Below are positions 6,311 to 22,131 of a stretch of 64,000 nt of DNA, piece by piece; positions within the stretch are counted from its first letter, which is position 1, and every line of letters starts with the position of its first letter. A program made the translations under genes and the position numbers. The notes beneath the pieces were generated by a model. It was given only the letters and a program-made list of their open reading frames with translations. It did not search any database and had not been told where the DNA came from. Source of the stretch: Ranitomeya imitator (taxonomy: Eukaryota); the NCBI RefSeq assembly GCF_032444005.1, contig NC_091291.1, forward strand, positions 129,828,001-129,892,000. The letters run 5' to 3'.

Positions 6311-7034
6311 TATATATTTATACATATTTCACTACACAATCTATATATCAATTGTATATTTATGTTTATACCATATACCGTATATACTCGAGTATAAGCC
6401 GAGATTTTCAGCCCAAATTTTTGGGCTGAAAGTGCCCCCCTCGGCTTATACTCGAGTCACGGTAGCGGTGGGGTTGGCGGGTGAGGGGAGAGGGCGCTGA
6501 GGTATACTTACCTAGTCCCAGCGATCCTCGCGCTGTCCCTGCCGTCCCACGGGCTTCGGTGCTGCAGCTTCTTCCTCTCTTCAGCGGTCACGTGGGACCG
6601 CTCATTACAGAAATGAATAAGCGGCTCCACCTCCCATAGGGGCGGAGCCGCTTATTCATTTCTCTAATCAGCGGTGCCGGTGACCGCTGATAGAGAAAGA
6701 AGCTGCGGCACCGAAGACAGGAGGGGACAGCGCGAGGATCGCCAGGACTAGGTGAGTATGTCATATTCACCTGTCCTCGTTCCAGCCGCCGGGCGCCGCT
6801 CCATCTTCCCGGCCGGCGCCTCCATCTTCCCGGCGTCTGCGCTCTCTGACTGATCAGGCAGAGGGCGCGATGACGCATACAGTGTGCGCGGCGCCCTCTG
6901 CCTGATCAGTCAGAGCAGAGACGCCGGGAAGATGGAGGCGCCGGAACGAGACGCCGGGAGCTGCAATCAAGGGAGGTGAGTATGTGTTTTTTTTCTTTAT
7001 TGCGGCAGCGGCGGCACAAATTTATGTGGAACAT

Positions 7035-7984
7035 CTATGGGGCACAGTGAACGGTGCAGAGCACCGTATAAGGCACAGCTAGGGGGCACAATGAACGGTG
7101 CAGAGCACCGTATATGGCACAGCACAGCTATGGGGCACAGTGAACGGTGCAGGGCACCGTATATGGCACATCTATGGGGCACAGTGAACGGTGCAGAGCA
7201 CTGTATATGGCACAGCACAGCTATGGGGCACAGTGAACGGTGCAGAGCACCGTATATGGCACAGCACAGCTATGGGGCACAGTGAACGGTGCAGAGCACC
7301 GTATATGGCACAGCACAGCTATGGGGCACAGTGAACGGTGCAGAGCACCGTATATGGCACAGCACAGCTATGGGGCACAGTGAACGGTGCAGAGCACCGT
7401 ATATGGCACAGCACAGCTATGGGGCACAGTGAACGGTGCAGAGCACCGTATATGGCACATCTATGGGGCACAATGAACGGTGCAGAGCACCGTATATGGC
7501 ACAGCTAGGGGGCACAATGAACGGTGCAGAGCACTGTATATGGCACAGCACAGCTATGGGGCACAGTGAACGGTGCAGAGCACCGTATATGGCACAGCAC
7601 AGCTATGTATGGGGCACAGTGAACGGTGCAGAGCACCGTATATGGCACAGCACAGCTATGGGGCACAGTGAACGGTGCAGAGCACCGTATATGGCACAGC
7701 ACAGCTATGTATGGGGCACAGTGAACGGTGCAGAGCACCGTATATGGCACAGCACAGCTATGGGGCACAGTGAACGGTGCAGAGCACCGTATATGGCACA
7801 TCTATGGGGCACAATGAACGGTGCAGAGCACCGTATATGGCACAGCTAGGGGGCACAATGAACGGTGCAGAGCACCGTATATGGCACAGCTATGGGGCAC
7901 AGTGAACGGTGCAGAGCACTGTATATGGCACATCTATGGGGCACAATGAACGGTGCAGAGCACCGTATATGGCACAGCTAGGGG
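7035..7984. repeat. 44-49 bp minisatellite inside the pogo-like MITE (resumes at 13676-13765 after the LTR element)
   Basis: Unit CTATGGGGCACAGTGAACGGTGCAGAGCACCGTATATGGCACAGCACAG with internal hairpin ACGGTGC-AGA-GCACCGT. Confidence 0.95.
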
Positions 7985-8733
7985 TGTTGTGAATTCTGTG
8001 GCTGAGTTCACTTCTGTGGTCACAAGTGGTATTGCAGTCTCTGGGCTTCCTCCCTCAGGTGTTTTGGTGAGCTCGTTGGCTGCCTTGCTATTTAGCTCCA
8101 CCTGAGTCTGTCTTCCTTGCTCCTTGTCAATGTTCCAGTGTTGGATCTGAGCTACTGCATCTTTCCTTGGGCCTGCTGCTCTGCTAGATAAGTGCTTCTA
8201 GTTTGTTTTCTGTTTTTTCTGTCCAGCTTGTTATTATCTTTTGCTGGAAGCTCTGAGAAGCAAAGGGGTGCACCGCCGTGCTGTTAGTTCGGCACGGTGG
8301 GTCTTTTTTGCCCCTTTGCGTGGTTTTCGTTTTAGGGTTTTTTGTAGACTGCATAGTTCTCTTTGCTATCCTCGCTCTGTCTAGAATATCGGGCCTCACT
8401 TTGCTGAATCTATTTCATTCCTACGTTTGTCTTTTCATCTTGCTAACAGTCATTATATGTGGGGGCTGCCTATTCCTTTGGGGTATTTCTCTGAGGTAAG
8501 TCAGGCTTGTATTTCTATCTTCAGGCTAGTCAGCTCCTCAGGCAGTGCCGAGTTGCATAGGTAGTTGTTAGGCGCAATCCACTGCTGCTTCCAGTTGTGT
8601 GAGGACAGTTCAGGTACTGCAGTCTACAGAGATTCCACGTCTCAGAGCTCGTCCTATTGTTTTGGGTTTTTGCCAGATCTCTGTATGTGCGCTGATTACT
8701 GCACGCTGTGTTGCCTGATTGCCAGCCATAACA
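7985..8733 (+). repeat. 5' LTR (749 bp)
   Basis: TGTTGTG...CATAACA, direct repeat of 12927-13675 at offset 4942. The ORF track shows identical peptides in both copies. Confidence 0.97.
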
Positions 8734-8865
8734 GTACAAGGAGCCAATTCAATGATTTCCAATAGAGGGAAAAAAGAAATCCTGACATCATTTTTTTTTC
8801 TTAGCTCTGTCTTCAGTCTTTTTTTTCCCCTAGACATTAGAGTGCTTCAGGACACAGCTGTGGAC

Positions 8866-11800
8866 ATGGATATTCAGGCTCTGTGCTCCTCAATGGATAA
8901 TCTCGTTGTAAATGTACAAAAGATTCAAGATACTATTGATCAGAAATCGATGCTAGAACCAAGAATTCCGATTCCTGATTTGTTTTTTGGTGACAGAACT
9001 AAGTTCCTGAGCTTCAGAAATAATTGTAAGCTATTTTTGGCCTTGAAACCTCATTCTTCTGGTAATCCTATTCAACAGGTTTTGATTATTATTTCTTTTT
9101 TGCGCGGCGACCCACAGGACTGGGCGTTTTCTCTTGCACCAGGAGATTCTGCATTGAGTAATGTTGATGCATTTTTCCAGGCGCTGGGATTGCTTTACGA
9201 TGAGCCTAATTCAGTGGATCAAGCTGAGAAAAATCTGCTGGCTTTATGCCAGGGTCAGGATGATGTAGAAGTATATTGTCAGAAATTTAGAAAATGGTCA
9301 GTACTCACTCTGTGGAATGAATCTGCACTAGCGGCTTTGTTCAGAAAGGGTCTCTCTGAAGCTCTTAAGGATGTAATGGTGGGATTTCCTATGCCTGCTG
9401 GTTTGAATGAGTCTATGTCCTTGGCCATTCAGATCGGTCGTCGCTTGCGCGAGCGTAAATCTGTGCACCATCTGGCGGTATTGTCTGAGAGTAAGCCTGA
9501 GCCTATGCAGTGCAACAGGACTATGACTAAAGTAGAACGGCACGAACACAGACGTCTGAACAGACTGTGTTTCTATTGTGGTGATTCTACTCATGCTATT
9601 TCTAATTGTCCTAAACGCACTAGGCGGTTCGATAGCTCTGCCGTTATTGGTACTGTACAGTCCAAATTCCTTTTGTCCATTACCTTAATGTGCTCTTTGT
9701 CATCATATTCTGTCATGGCGTTTGTGGATTCAGGCGCTGCCCTGAATCTGATGGATTTGGATTATGCTAAACGTTGTGGATTTTTCTTGGAGCCTTTGCA
9801 GTGTCCTATTCCGTTGAGAGGAATTGATGCTACACCTCTGGCCAAGAATAAGCCTCAGTACTGGGCCCAGCTGACCATGTGCATGGCTCCTGCACATCAG
9901 GAAGTTATTCGCTTTTTGGTACTGCATAATTTGCATGATGTGGTCGTGTTGGGGTTGCCATGGCTACAAACCCATAATCCAGTATTGGATTGGAACTCTA
10001 TGTCGGTAACCAGCTGGGGTTGTCAGGGAGTACATGGTGATGTTCCATTTTTGTCTATTTCGTCATCCATTCCTTCTGACATCCCAGAGTTCTTGTCGGA
10101 CTTTCAGGATGTATTTGAAGAGTCCAAGTCTGATGCCCTTCCTCCGCATAGGAATTGTGATTGTGCTATCGATTTGATTCCTGGTAGTAAATTCCCTAAG
10201 GGTCGTTTATTTAATTTGTCCGTACCTGAACACACCGCTATGCGCAGTTATGTGAAGGAGTCCCTGGAGAAGGGACATATTCGCCCATCGTCGTCACCAT
10301 TGGGAGCAGGGTTCTTTTTTGTAGCCAAGAAGGATGGTTCGCTAAGACCGTGTATTGATTACCGCCTTCTTAATAAGATCACTGTTAAGTTTCAGTATCC
10401 CTTGCCATTGATTTCTGACTTGTTTGCTCGGATTAAGGGGGCTAGTTGGTTTACTAAGATTGATCTTCGTGGTGCGTATAATCTGGTGAGAATCAGGCAG
10501 GGAGATGAATGGAAAACGGCATTTAATACGCCCGAGGGTCATTTTGAGTATCTGGTGATGCCGTTCGGACTTGCCAATGCTCCATCTGTTTTTCAGTCTT
10601 TTATGCATGACATTTTCCGTGAGTATCTGGATAAATTCTTGATTGTTTACTTGGATGACATTTTGATCTTCTCAGATGATTGGGAGTCTCATGTAAAGCA
10701 AGTCAGAATGGTGTTCCAGGTACTGCGTGCTAATTCCTTGTTCGTGAAGGGATCAAAGTGTCTCTTCGGTGTGCAGAAAGTTTCATTTTTGGGGTTCATC
10801 TTTTCCCCTTCTACTATCGAGATGGATCCGGTTAAGGTTCAGGCCATCCAGGATTGGACTCAGCCGACATCTCTAAAAAGTTTGCAGAAATTCCTGGGCT
10901 TTGCTAATTTTTATCGTCGCTTCATCTGTAATTTTTCTAGCATTGCCAGACCATTGACCGATTTGACCAAGAAGGGTGCTGATTTGGTTAATTGGTCTTC
11001 TGCTGCCGTGGAAGCTTTTCAGGAGTTGAAGCGTCGTTTTTGCTGTGCCCCTGTGTTGTGTCAACCTGATGTTTCTCTTCCGTTCCAGGTCGAGGTTGAT
11101 GCTTCTGAGATTGGTGCAGGGGCGGTTTTGTCACAGAGAGGTTCTGGTTGCTCAGTGTTCAAACCATGTGCTTTCTTTTCCAGGAAATTTTCTGCTGCTG
11201 AGCGTAATTATGATGTGGGCAACCGAGAGTTGCTGGCCATGAAGTGGGCATTCGAGGAGTGGCGTCATTGGCTTGAGGGTGCTAAGCATCGCGTGGTGGT
11301 TTTGACTGATCATAAGAACCTTACTTATCTTGAGTCTGCCAAGCGCTTGAATCCTAGACAGGCCCGTTGGTCGTTATTTTTTGCTCGTTTTGATTTTGTG
11401 ATTTCATACCTTCCGGGCTCTAAAAATGTGAAGGCGGATGCTCTGTCTAGGAGTTTTGTGCCCGACTCTCCGGGGTTATCTGAGCCGGCGAGTATCCTCA
11501 AGGAAGGAGTCATTGTGTCTGCCATCTCCCCTGATTTGCGGAGAGTGTTGCAGAAATTTCAGGCTAATAAACCTGATCGTTGTCCGGCCGAGAAACTGTT
11601 CGTCCCTGATAGGTGGACTAGTAAAGTTATCTCTGAACTTCATTGTTCGGTGCTGGCCGGTCATCCAGGAATCTTTGGTACCAGGGAGTTGGTTGCTAGA
11701 TCCTTCTGGTGGCCATCTCTGTCGCGGGATGTGCGTGCTTTTGTGCAGTCCTGTGGAATTTGTGCTAGGGCTAAGCCCTGCTGTTCACGTGCCAGTGGGT

Positions 11801-13047
11801 TGCTTTTGCCCTTGCCGGTCCCGAAGAGGCCTTGGACACATATTTCGATGGATTTCATTTCTGACCTTCCCGTTTCTCAAAAGATGTCTGTCATTTGGGT
11901 GGTCTGTGATCGCTTTTCTAAAATGGTCCATCTGGTGCCCTTGGTTAAATTGCCTTCCTCCTCTGATTTGGTGCCTTTGTTCTTCCAGCATGTGGTTCGT
12001 TTACATGGCATTCCTGAGAATATTGTTTCTGACAGAGGTTCCCAGTTTGTCTCGAGGTTCTGGCGAGCCTTTTGTGGTAGGATGGGCATTGACCTATCTT
12101 TTTCCTCGGCCTTCCATCCTCAGACTAATGGCCAGACCGAACGAACCAATCAGACCTTGGAAACATATCTGAGATGTTTTGTTTCCGCTGACCAGGATGA
12201 TTGGGTGTCATTTTTGCCGTTGGCTGAGTTCGCCCTTAATAATCGGGCCAGCTCGGCTACCTTGGTCTCTCCATTTTTCTGCAATTCTGGGTTCCATCCT
12301 CGTTTCTCTTCAGGACAGGTTGAGTCTTCGGACTGTCCTGGTGTGGATTATGTGGTGGACAGGTTGCAGCAGATCTGGACTCAGGTAGTGGACAATTTGA
12401 CCTTGTCCCAGGAGAAGGCTCAGCTTTTCGCTAATCGCAGACGCCGTGTGGGACCCCGACTTCGTGTTGGGGATCTGGTTTGGTTATCTTCTCGTCATAT
12501 ACCTATGAAGGTTTCCTCTCCTAAATTTAAACCTCGTTTTATTGGTCCGTATAGGATTTCTGAGATTCTCAATCCGGTGTCTTTTCGTCTGACCCTCCCA
12601 GACTCCTTTTCCATACATAATGTATTCCATAGGTCGTTGTTGAGGAGATACGTGGCACCTATGGTTCCATCTGTGGAGCCTCCTGCCCCTGTTTTGGTGG
12701 AGGGGGAATTGGAGTATATTGTGGAGAAGATTTTGGATTCTCGTGTCTCTAGACGGAAACTCCAGTATCTGGTCAAATGGAAGGGTTATGCTCAGGAAGA
12801 TAATTCCTGGGTTTTTGCCTCTGATGTCCATGCCCCAGATCTTGTTCGTGCCTTTCATGTGGCTCATCCTGGTCGGCCTGGGGGTTCTGGTGAGGGTTCG
12901 GTGACCCCTCCTCAAGGGGGGGGTACTGTTGTGAATTCTGTGGCTGAGTTCACTTCTGTGGTCACAAGTGGTATTGCAGTCTCTGGGCTTCCTCCCTCAG
13001 GTGTTTTGGTGAGCTCGTTGGCTGCCTTGCTATTTAGCTCCACCTGA
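8866..13047 (+). CDS. Gag-Pol polyprotein: Gag with CCHC knuckle, aspartic protease, RT, RNase H, integrase, chromodomain. Open frame extends upstream to 8719; likely start ATG 8866.
   Basis: Motifs CFYCGDSTHAISNC, FVDSGA, YLDDILIFS, VDAS, zinc finger H..H..C..C, MDFI/SDRG/QTNGQTER, RFIGPY, and chromodomain EYIVEKILDSR...YLVKWKGY...NSW. ATG 8866 has a good Kozak context (gacATGg); ATG 8752 is the alternative. Confidence 0.93.
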   Translation: MDIQALCSSMDNLVVNVQKIQDTIDQKSMLEPRIPIPDLFFGDRTKFLSFRNNCKLFLALKPHSSGNPIQQVLIIISFLRGDPQDWAFSLAPGDSALSNVDAFFQALGLLYDEPNSVDQAEKNLLALCQGQDDVEVYCQKFRKWSVLTLWNESALAALFRKGLSEALKDVMVGFPMPAGLNESMSLAIQIGRRLRERKSVHHLAVLSESKPEPMQCNRTMTKVERHEHRRLNRLCFYCGDSTHAISNCPKRTRRFDSSAVIGTVQSKFLLSITLMCSLSSYSVMAFVDSGAALNLMDLDYAKRCGFFLEPLQCPIPLRGIDATPLAKNKPQYWAQLTMCMAPAHQEVIRFLVLHNLHDVVVLGLPWLQTHNPVLDWNSMSVTSWGCQGVHGDVPFLSISSSIPSDIPEFLSDFQDVFEESKSDALPPHRNCDCAIDLIPGSKFPKGRLFNLSVPEHTAMRSYVKESLEKGHIRPSSSPLGAGFFFVAKKDGSLRPCIDYRLLNKITVKFQYPLPLISDLFARIKGASWFTKIDLRGAYNLVRIRQGDEWKTAFNTPEGHFEYLVMPFGLANAPSVFQSFMHDIFREYLDKFLIVYLDDILIFSDDWESHVKQVRMVFQVLRANSLFVKGSKCLFGVQKVSFLGFIFSPSTIEMDPVKVQAIQDWTQPTSLKSLQKFLGFANFYRRFICNFSSIARPLTDLTKKGADLVNWSSAAVEAFQELKRRFCCAPVLCQPDVSLPFQVEVDASEIGAGAVLSQRGSGCSVFKPCAFFSRKFSAAERNYDVGNRELLAMKWAFEEWRHWLEGAKHRVVVLTDHKNLTYLESAKRLNPRQARWSLFFARFDFVISYLPGSKNVKADALSRSFVPDSPGLSEPASILKEGVIVSAISPDLRRVLQKFQANKPDRCPAEKLFVPDRWTSKVISELHCSVLAGHPGIFGTRELVARSFWWPSLSRDVRAFVQSCGICARAKPCCSRASGLLLPLPVPKRPWTHISMDFISDLPVSQKMSVIWVVCDRFSKMVHLVPLVKLPSSSDLVPLFFQHVVRLHGIPENIVSDRGSQFVSRFWRAFCGRMGIDLSFSSAFHPQTNGQTERTNQTLETYLRCFVSADQDDWVSFLPLAEFALNNRASSATLVSPFFCNSGFHPRFSSGQVESSDCPGVDYVVDRLQQIWTQVVDNLTLSQEKAQLFANRRRRVGPRLRVGDLVWLSSRHIPMKVSSPKFKPRFIGPYRISEILNPVSFRLTLPDSFSIHNVFHRSLLRRYVAPMVPSVEPPAPVLVEGELEYIVEKILDSRVSRRKLQYLVKWKGYAQEDNSWVFASDVHAPDLVRAFHVAHPGRPGGSGEGSVTPPQGGGTVVNSVAEFTSVVTSGIAVSGLPPSGVLVSSLAALLFSST

Positions 13048-13675
13048 GTCTGTCTTCCTTGCTCCTTGTCAATGTTCCAGTGTTGGATCTGAGCTACTGC
13101 ATCTTTCCTTGGGCCTGCTGCTCTGCTAGATAAGTGCTTCTAGTTTGTTTTCTGTTTTTTCTGTCCAGCTTGTTATTATCTTTTGCTGGAAGCTCTGAGA
13201 AGCAAAGGGGTGCACCGCCGTGCTGTTAGTTCGGCACGGTGGGTCTTTTTTGCCCCTTTGCGTGGTTTTCGTTTTAGGGTTTTTTGTAGACTGCATAGTT
13301 CTCTTTGCTATCCTCGCTCTGTCTAGAATATCGGGCCTCACTTTGCTGAATCTATTTCATTCCTACGTTTGTCTTTTCATCTTGCTAACAGTCATTATAT
13401 GTGGGGGCTGCCTATTCCTTTGGGGTATTTCTCTGAGGTAAGTCAGGCTTGTATTTCTATCTTCAGGCTAGTCAGCTCCTCAGGCAGTGCCGAGTTGCAT
13501 AGGTAGTTGTTAGGCGCAATCCACTGCTGCTTCCAGTTGTGTGAGGACAGTTCAGGTACTGCAGTCTACAGAGATTCCACGTCTCAGAGCTCGTCCTATT
13601 GTTTTGGGTTTTTGCCAGATCTCTGTATGTGCGCTGATTACTGCACGCTGTGTTGCCTGATTGCCAGCCATAACA
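12927..13675 (+). repeat. 3' LTR (749 bp)
   Basis: Direct repeat of 7985-8733, preceded by the PPT. Confidence 0.97.
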
Positions 13676-13924
13676 TAGGGGGCACAGTGAACGGTGCAGA
13701 GCACTATATGGTTCACACCTATGGGGAAATATGAACGGTGCAGAGCACTATATGGCACAGCAATGGGGAAATAATGATCTATTTTTATTTTTGAAATTCA
13801 CCGGTAAATGCTGCATTTCCACCCTAGGCTTATACTCGAGTCAATAAGTTTTCCCAGTTTTTTGTGGCAAAATTAGGGGGGTCGGCTTATACTCGGGTCG
13901 GCTTATACTCGAGTATATACGGTA

Positions 13925-21151: not shown

Positions 21152-22131
21152 GGCTAGTTTCACATTTGCGTTTAAAAACGCAGATTTTAAACGCAAAACA
21201 CAGGTGGTGAAAAAAATGCATGTAAACGCGTGCAAATGCTGCGTTTTTTAGACGCATGCGTTTTTGCATGTGGTAAAAAAACACGGCGTTTTGACGCATT
21301 TACATGCGTTTTTCCTGCGTTTGCGTTTTTGAAACGCATGATGAGAAGTGTGTGACAGCTGCCAATCATCAAAATCAACTAGAAAACCCACTATAAACAG
21401 AAATAACTAGGGTTAGGGTTAGGATCCCTAGGGTTAGGGTTAGGATCCCTAGGGTTAGGATCCCTAGGGTTAGGATCCCTAGGGTTAGGATCCCTAGGGT
21501 TAGGGTTAGGATCCATAGGGTTAGGATCCATAGGGTTAGGGTTAGGATCCCTTTAGGGTTAGGATCCATAGGGTTAGGGTTAGGATCCCTAGGGTTAGGG
21601 TTAGGATCCATAGGGTTAGGATCCTTAGGGTTAGGATCCCTTTAGGGTTAGGATCCATAGGGTTAGGGTTAGGATCCCTAGGGTTAGGGTTAGGATCCCT
21701 AGGGTTAGGATCCCTAGGGTTAGGATCCATAGGGTTAGGGTTAGGATCCATAGGGTTAGGATCCCTTTAGGGTTAGGATCCCTTTAGGGTTAGGATCCCT
21801 TTAGGGTTGGGGGCTGGCTTATCTGTGTGTATTCTTGTGTTTTTCTATTGAAACACATGCGTTTAAAAATGCAAGCAAATGCATGTGCTTCAAAACGCAT
21901 GCGTTTACATAGACAGCAATACGTTTTTTTGCCACAAAAAACGCCTCTAGAAATTACTATATGTTGCATTTCCGCAACAAAACGCAAGCATAGAAACGAC
22001 GCATGCGTCATCAAAACGCGGCAAAACGCATGCAAAAAAAAAATGCGTTTTTAATGTTAAGTATAGAAAAAAACGCATGCGTTTTTTTGCGCTAAAACGC
22101 AGCGGCAAAAAACGCAAATGTGAAACCAGCC
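21152..22131. mobile_element. Kolobok/T2-like MITE carrying an internal telomere-like array
   Basis: TIRs GGCTAGTTTCACATTTGCG and CGCAAATGTGAAACCAGCC, TA-containing flanks. Confidence 0.82.
21408..21808 (+). repeat. Telomere-like TTAGGG array interleaved with GGATCC
   Basis: Units TAGGGTTAGGATCCC, TAGGGTTAGGATCCA and TTAGGG. Confidence 0.95.

What the first reader, a model, noticed from the sequence alone, without database searches (positions are those of the whole stretch)
8089..8747. tRNA-independent self-priming signature in the chromovirus
Seen: the sequence after the 5' LTR (GTACAAGGAGCCAA, 8734-8747) does not start with TGG, so it is not complementary to a tRNA CCA end. Instead, ACAAGGAGC (8736-8744) is perfectly complementary to GCTCCTTGT (8119-8127) inside the LTR, extendable to 11 bp with one bulge. 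A TATA-like TATTTAG (8089-8095) lies about 28-30 nt upstream of that segment, where a transcription start would be expected. Established: fission-yeast Tf1 primes reverse transcription with the first 11 nt of its own transcript, and this has been proposed for vertebrate Tf1/sushi elements. Inference: this frog element self-primes.
Basis: partly seen in the sequence, partly recalled or inferred. Interest (0 to 1): 0.7.

Follow-up and report, generated by a model that had tools for sequence, protein, structure and literature searches.

The report
Self-priming frog chromovirus, nine-base primer
A young frog jumping gene has no tRNA docking site; the nine bases after its left repeat pair with a stretch inside that repeat, and related families keep the pairing with different letters, so it likely starts copying itself with the first nine bases of its own RNA, a trick shown in yeast Tf1 and already proposed for this group in vertebrates.

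Summary
Confirmed and sharpened. The element (7985-13675) is an intact chromodomain Ty3/gypsy retrotransposon. Its PBS (8736-8744, LTR end +3..+11) pairs 9/9 with 8119-8127, 30 nt after a TATA-like box. Alone this is modest (42 of 2000 shuffles). Across 13 different PBS 9-mers from this genome, the perfect complement lies in the element's own LTR in 12 of 13 and in another family's in 0 of 156; pairing starts at +3 in 40 of 54 loci; TATA peaks at -30. Two PBS sequences predicted from LTRs alone were found 11,787 and 6,539 times (control 0). The primer is likely 9 nt from G8119, not 11 nt with a bulge. The start site, cleavage and priming were not measured, and Tf1's flanking 'pretzel' stems were not significant. 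Self-priming is in print for the Tf1/sushi group, and this scan noted it before on other DNA, so this is a new member of a known kind. Extras: at least 11 primer/PBS pairs coexist in one clade of about 63,000 LTR-PBS junctions, and that clade makes 6-bp target duplications whereas the other chromovirus families sampled make 5-bp ones.

The parts
7979..7984 (.). Left copy of a 6-bp target-site duplication, in a 44-49-nt satellite
   Evidence: 6 bp in 19 of 19 complete sister copies
7985..8733 (+). 5' LTR, 749 nt, TG...CA, identical to the 3' LTR
8089..8095 (+). TATA-like box at -30 from the predicted start
   Evidence: mean TATAWAW match 5.7 of 7 at -30 over 16 representatives, about 2 elsewhere
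8119..8127 (+). Predicted self-primer: first 9 nt of the transcript; predicted start at G8119 after a T
   Evidence: start site inferred, not measured
8705..8735 (+). Weak hairpin closing at the U5 end (U5-IR-like); not significant
   Evidence: p = 0.07 against shuffles
8734..8735 (+). 2-nt spacer GT between LTR and PBS; mirrors the AC at 12925-12926
8736..8744 (+). Primer-binding site, 9 nt, complementary to 8119-8127
8752..13047 (+). Single open frame Gag(CCHC)-PR-RT-RNase H-IN-chromodomain (stop-to-stop 8719-13047; ATGs at 8752 and 8866), running into the 3' LTR
12914..12923 (+). Polypurine tract, followed by T and the 2-nt AC before the 3' LTR
12927..13675 (+). 3' LTR
13676..13681 (.). Right copy of the 6-bp target-site duplication

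Best explanation
This intact Tf1/sushi-type chromovirus has a 9-nt PBS that pairs with LTR bases 8119-8127, which lie 30 nt after a TATA-like box and are the predicted first nine bases of its transcript, so it likely primes minus-strand synthesis with its own RNA. Shown: the pairing, its register (LTR end +3), the TATA spacing and compensated change across families. Inferred: Pol II starts at G8119; the 5' end folds back on the PBS; by analogy with Tf1 the element's RNase H cuts after nt 9 to free a 3' OH; RT extends from opposite T8735, so the linear cDNA would carry 2 extra bases at each end (GT after CA, AC before TG) that integrase would trim.
For: Own-LTR perfect complement 12 of 13, other-family LTR 0 of 156; 0 of 200,000 permutations reach the observed total. 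Perfect 9-mer starts at +3 in 40 of 54 loci, +4 in 26, +2 in 12, and at +1 or +5..+12 in none. TATAWAW score peaks at -30. PBS-blind anchor (TATA + 30 nt) in the window's clade: 34 of 42 loci with one anchor hit pair 9/9, 6 pair 8/9, 2 less; shuffled mean 6, maximum 16; 17 of 59 loci had no or several anchor hits and were left out. Prediction written down first: two PBS types deduced from LTRs were found 11,787 and 6,539 times, reversed-pattern control 0. No TGG; no tRNA gene among 3 pattern hits. RT, RNase H and chromodomain intact. Tf1 mechanism and its extension to vertebrate Tf1/sushi elements: passages of PMC7175516, PMC4600332, PMC6317226, bioRxiv 10.1101/2022.12.06.519325.
Against: No start site measured. 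The unconstrained fold of 8119-8790 does not form the primer:PBS helix (the method cannot draw pseudoknots). The two flanking stems of the Tf1 'pretzel' are not significant: leader p <= 0.05 in 2 of 16, U5 end in 3 of 16, window p = 0.38 and 0.07, and no shared leader stem appears across 15 clade members. The window's TATA is weak (5 of 7; 6.9% of LTR positions score as well). The duplex is 9 bp against 11 in Tf1. In 8 of 37 clade loci base -1 is G and could pair with +12, so the 5' border is not strict there. 14 of 54 anchored loci lack a perfect +3 match; in 6 of 11 imperfect copies checked the other LTR or the PBS carries a private change, 5 could not be checked.
Confidence: 0.88

Rival explanations
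1. The pairing is kept for another job (circularising or packaging the RNA, or shielding the PBS) and priming uses something else, such as a host small RNA or a protein.
For: Priming was not observed; flanking stems are weak.
Against: The helix ends exactly 2 nt from the LTR, mirrored by the 2 nt on the PPT side, which is where a primer 3' end must lie; its partner begins at the TATA + 30 position; all 11 perfect types are pure Watson-Crick and 6 of 9 one-step differences are transversions, unlike ordinary structural helices that drift through G-U (recalled).
Confidence: 0.07
2. A tRNA half or fragment primes, as in some Ty1/copia lineages, and the LTR match is secondary.
For: The host tRNA set could not be screened whole: the Rfam search scored 63 candidates, and the 30 loci fetched held one anticodon only. 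Half-tRNA priming exists (PMC6317226 passage).
Against: More than 20 different PBS 9-mers, each matched by its own LTR, would each need its own tRNA fragment. The pattern primer-9-mer + up to 30 nt + B box gave 3 places, none a tRNA gene. That paper found half-tRNA priming only in Ty1/copia among plant elements.
Confidence: 0.03
3. Chance complementarity in a pyrimidine-rich LTR.
For: 2-9% of shuffles give such a match for one copy.
Against: Cross-family, register, TATA and prediction tests.
Confidence: 0.01

Closest known systems
Tf1/Tf2 of Schizosaccharomyces pombe (self-priming shown by experiment; passages of PMC7175516, PMC11042837)
   Same: Chromodomain Ty3/gypsy element, single ORF, no tRNA PBS, PBS complementary to the predicted 5' end of its own transcript.
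   Different: 9-nt duplex against 11; 2-nt spacer between LTR and PBS (Tf1's PBS and PPT are recalled as abutting the LTRs; not read); flanking stems not significant here; 6-bp target duplication against 5 bp in fission-yeast relatives and grasshopper; nothing tested by experiment.
Vertebrate Tf1/sushi group (sushi-ichi; Butler et al. 2001, not held, known only from citing passages)
   Same: Self-priming and the 'pretzel' fold are proposed for this group; fish and Xenopus polyproteins are 42-48% identical over 87-97% of the length and group beside the frog families in the integrase tree.
   Different: I could not read which primer lengths, spacers or TSDs that paper reports. No sushi-ichi or Tf1 sequence was in my tree, so membership rests on domains and fish homologs.
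Tj1 (S. japonicus), Tosmo1-3 (S. osmophilus), plant Tcn1 clade (passages)
   Same: Self-priming inferred from PBS-LTR complementarity.
   Different: Here backed by within-genome covariation over more than 20 PBS types and by two confirmed predictions.

Membership tests
Chromovirus (Ty3/gypsy) | Gag-PR-RT-RH-IN order with a C-terminal chromodomain, LTRs TG...CA, PPT | tested here: met
   (RVT_1, RT_RNaseH, rve, SH3_Tf2-1, Chromo E = 3.5e-13); closest solved RT is Ty3
Tf1/sushi group | Phylogenetic placement with vertebrate/fungal chromoviruses, apart from plant clades | tested here: inconclusive
   Integrase tree groups it with fish, Ascaphus and Xenopus elements, apart from two plant rows; no named Tf1 or sushi-ichi sequence in the tree
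Tf1/sushi group | No tRNA-complementary PBS | tested here: met
   No TGG; fragment screen partial
Tf1/sushi group | PBS complementary to an LTR segment at the expected transcript start, conserved by compensated change | tested here: met
Tf1/sushi group | Three-duplex 'pretzel': two stems flanking the PBS | tested here: inconclusive
   Nested stems predicted in several 10-nt-primer families but not significant against shuffles; weak U5 hairpin only in part of the window's clade
Tf1-type self-priming | Transcript starts at the primer's first base | not testable with these tools
   Only assembled contigs were available; start inferred from TATA at -30
Tf1-type self-priming | RNase H cleavage frees the primer, which is extended by RT | not testable with these tools
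   RNase H domain present; no biochemistry

The most novel reading that the evidence does not exclude
The primer rewrites its own binding site: plus-strand synthesis copies the uncleared self-primer, so any change in the first nine bases is templated into the PBS, compensated pairs arise in one round, and the primer/PBS pair works as a fast-changing private key. That would explain 11 pure Watson-Crick types, mostly one transversion apart, in a clade whose integrases are still 92-98% identical, and the same clade has also switched its integrase from a 5-bp to a 6-bp staggered cut.
Probability: 0.4. Interest if true: 0.55.

Novelty: new member of a known kind. Interest (0 to 1): 0.35.

Why it matters
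Self-priming has been shown by experiment in yeast Tf1 and, in the passages I read, only proposed for vertebrates. This clade gives unusually strong comparative support, a base-exact prediction (start G8119, cut after 8127, 2-nt cDNA extensions) and a very abundant, recently active family (about 63,000 LTR-PBS junctions) in which 5' RACE or small-RNA sequencing of frog tissue could settle it. The 5-to-6-bp change in target duplication between sister integrase lineages is a natural pair for studying how integrase sets the spacing of its cuts.

Tried and rejected
11-bp bulged duplex: no energy gain, possible in 8 of 16 representatives. The permutation test was circular (each primer was picked by its own PBS) and is not used; one search replaces it. 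Start site from RNA: no RNA holder listed; 4 runs laid were contigs only, no place where many molecules begin; one contig beginning at 8113 is no evidence. Whole tRNA screen: not achieved. Unconstrained fold of 8119-8790 does not show the helix. Pretzel stems: not significant. Alignment-anchored reading slipped by 4 nt in 3 loci and failed in divergent ones; the TATA anchor is used instead. Of 40 loci gave an anchor, and of 20; the rest were dropped. Tree: 9 of 34 loci lacked a long integrase match and were left out. Papers not held: Levin 1995 and 1996, Lin and Levin 1998, Butler 2001, Wilhelm 2001, Esnault and Levin 2015. PMC4340606 and bioRxiv 10.1101/2023.11.06.565769 passages had nothing relevant. 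Searches for a 6-bp TSD in a vertebrate chromovirus (listings only) showed no such paper; Repbase, Dfam and subscription papers were not searched, so this is no proof that it is unreported.

Full report
The element. Window 7985-13675 is a complete LTR retrotransposon: two identical 749-nt LTRs, one open frame with Gag, protease, RT, RNase H, integrase, SH3 and chromodomain, and a PPT. At least 40 near-identical copies of its 5' end exist in the genome (471 candidates, 40 scored). The closest named proteins come from a poison frog; fish and Xenopus polyproteins are 42-48% identical.

The observation. Every coordinate given is right. After the LTR's CA come GT and then nine bases that are the exact reverse complement of 8119-8127; the TATA-like box starts 30 nt before G8119. 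For this copy alone, 42 of 2000 LTR shuffles give the same match. The 11-bp bulged version adds no energy.

Cross-family test. I collected chromovirus copies with three Pfam and two Gag-protein searches of the own genome, fetched 60 stretches and could anchor the LTR end in 53 besides the window. They carry 13 different PBS 9-mers among the representatives chosen. Scanning each PBS against the 750 nt upstream of every representative's LTR end gives a perfect complement in 12 of 13 own LTRs and 0 of 156 foreign ones; 0 of 200,000 permutations reach the total. Over all 54 loci a perfect 9-mer begins at +3 in 40, +4 in 26, +2 in 12, +13 in 1 and nowhere else from +1 to +14. The TATA score, not used to find the partner, peaks at -30 (5.7 of 7 against about 2). 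The partner begins with G after a pyrimidine in all 16 representatives, and is 10 nt in one group of families and 9 nt in the group that holds the window.

Prediction test. LTRs of close subfamilies nested in the fetched loci showed other letters at the primer position. I noted the prediction that their PBS would be the reverse complement, and both patterns were found, 11,787 and 6,539 times, control 0. A pattern with five free positions counts 63,090 LTR-PBS junctions (control 170) and shows 12 PBS types among the first 100 places. Reading the LTR at TATA + 30 without looking at the PBS, 34 of 42 loci with a single anchor pair 9/9 and 6 pair 8/9 (shuffled mean 6, maximum 16); 11 of 59 loci had no anchor and 6 had several. 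Eleven of the 12 types have a perfect partner in at least one copy. The four outer positions are fixed by the pattern; each of the five free positions uses two or three Watson-Crick pair types.

tRNA rival. A tRNA 3' end is excluded by the lack of TGG. The host set could not be screened whole; a pattern for the primer 9-mer upstream of a B box gave 3 places against 8 in the control, none a tRNA gene.

Mechanism. In Tf1 the first 11 bases pair with the PBS and RNase H cuts between bases 11 and 12 (passage of PMC7175516); three duplexes form a 'pretzel' (passage of bioRxiv 10.1101/2022.12.06.519325); about half of the cDNA keeps a PBS copy at its 3' end (passage of PMC11042837). By analogy, inferred: start at G8119, fold-back, cut after 8127, extension from opposite T8735. 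The GT spacer and the AC on the PPT side extend the terminal inverted repeat by 2 nt, as expected if integrase trims 2 nt (recalled for Ty3 and retroviruses); in 5 families' copies the two sides are not mirror images. Against: the flanking stems are not significant, the free fold omits the helix, and no start site could be measured.

Boldest reading. All perfect types are pure Watson-Crick and 6 of 9 one-step differences are transversions, while integrase pieces of the clade are 92-98% identical to the window's. This fits templated compensation, in which the PBS is recopied from the primer. It is inference; direction of change was not tested.

Target duplication. The window's family makes 6-bp duplications: window plus 19 of 19 complete copies out of 20 fetched; a sister subfamily 8 of 9 complete copies (one 5 bp; 3 of 12 incomplete); other subfamilies 12 exact and 2 near of 18 complete out of 40, one 4 bp, three unclear, none 5 bp. 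The other families show exact 5 bp in 25 of 31 loci with both ends, none 6 bp. The 6-bp copies form one clade in an integrase tree (100/100, long branch, 11 labelled rows). Six-bp duplications were 0.4% of 13,566 plant elements (passage of PMC6317226), and fission-yeast relatives make 5 bp. Three searches showed no paper on a 6-bp vertebrate chromovirus (listings only).

Known or new. Self-priming is described for the Tf1/sushi group 'from yeast and vertebrates' (passages). The primary papers, among them Butler et al. 2001, were not held, and supplements were not opened, so primer length, spacer and TSD may be reported there. Earlier notes of this scan saw the same signature in other genomes; none on this sequence or in this genome. 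Verdict: real, well supported, a new member of a known kind; interest 0.35.

Noticed in passing
window 7979-7984 and 13676-13681; loci L101-L120, L154-L165, L213-L252: The whole clade makes 6-bp target-site duplications, while the other chromovirus families sampled in this genome, including its sister branch, make 5 bp.
   Followed up: yes
own genome, pattern: 63,090 LTR-PBS junctions of this one clade in a 5.96-Gb genome; if most were full length (not checked) that would be several percent of the genome.
   Followed up: partly
L072:6995-7909: A full LTR joined by GTAC to the start of a second LTR, as a two-LTR circle junction with both 2-nt extensions would look; ambiguous, since GTAC is also the first 4 nt after the 5' LTR. 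One case in 1.4 Mb held.
   Followed up: partly
L200 / L235:909-917: An internally deleted copy in which the sequence jumps from the end of the 9-nt PBS into the integrase gene at a short shared word; fits a misdirected plus-strand transfer or ordinary microhomology deletion.
   Followed up: partly
L237: PBS of one subfamily type with the primer segment of another type (8/9): point change or recombinant.
   Followed up: no
L042-L079: In most 10-nt-primer families an ATG followed by a Gag-like start lies one base after the PBS, so there is almost no leader.
   Followed up: no
window 7985-8733: No AATAAA or close variant in the LTR; the frame reads about 120 nt into the 3' LTR.
   Followed up: no
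window 6943-7984 and 13676-13753: The element sits in a 44-49-nt satellite array.
   Followed up: no
window 21375-21764: Array of telomere-like TTAGGG units mixed with GGATCC words.
   Followed up: no
L121-L150 (G000:C4 near 660.8 Mb): Tandem array of tRNA genes with anticodon TTT at about 1-kb spacing.
   Followed up: no
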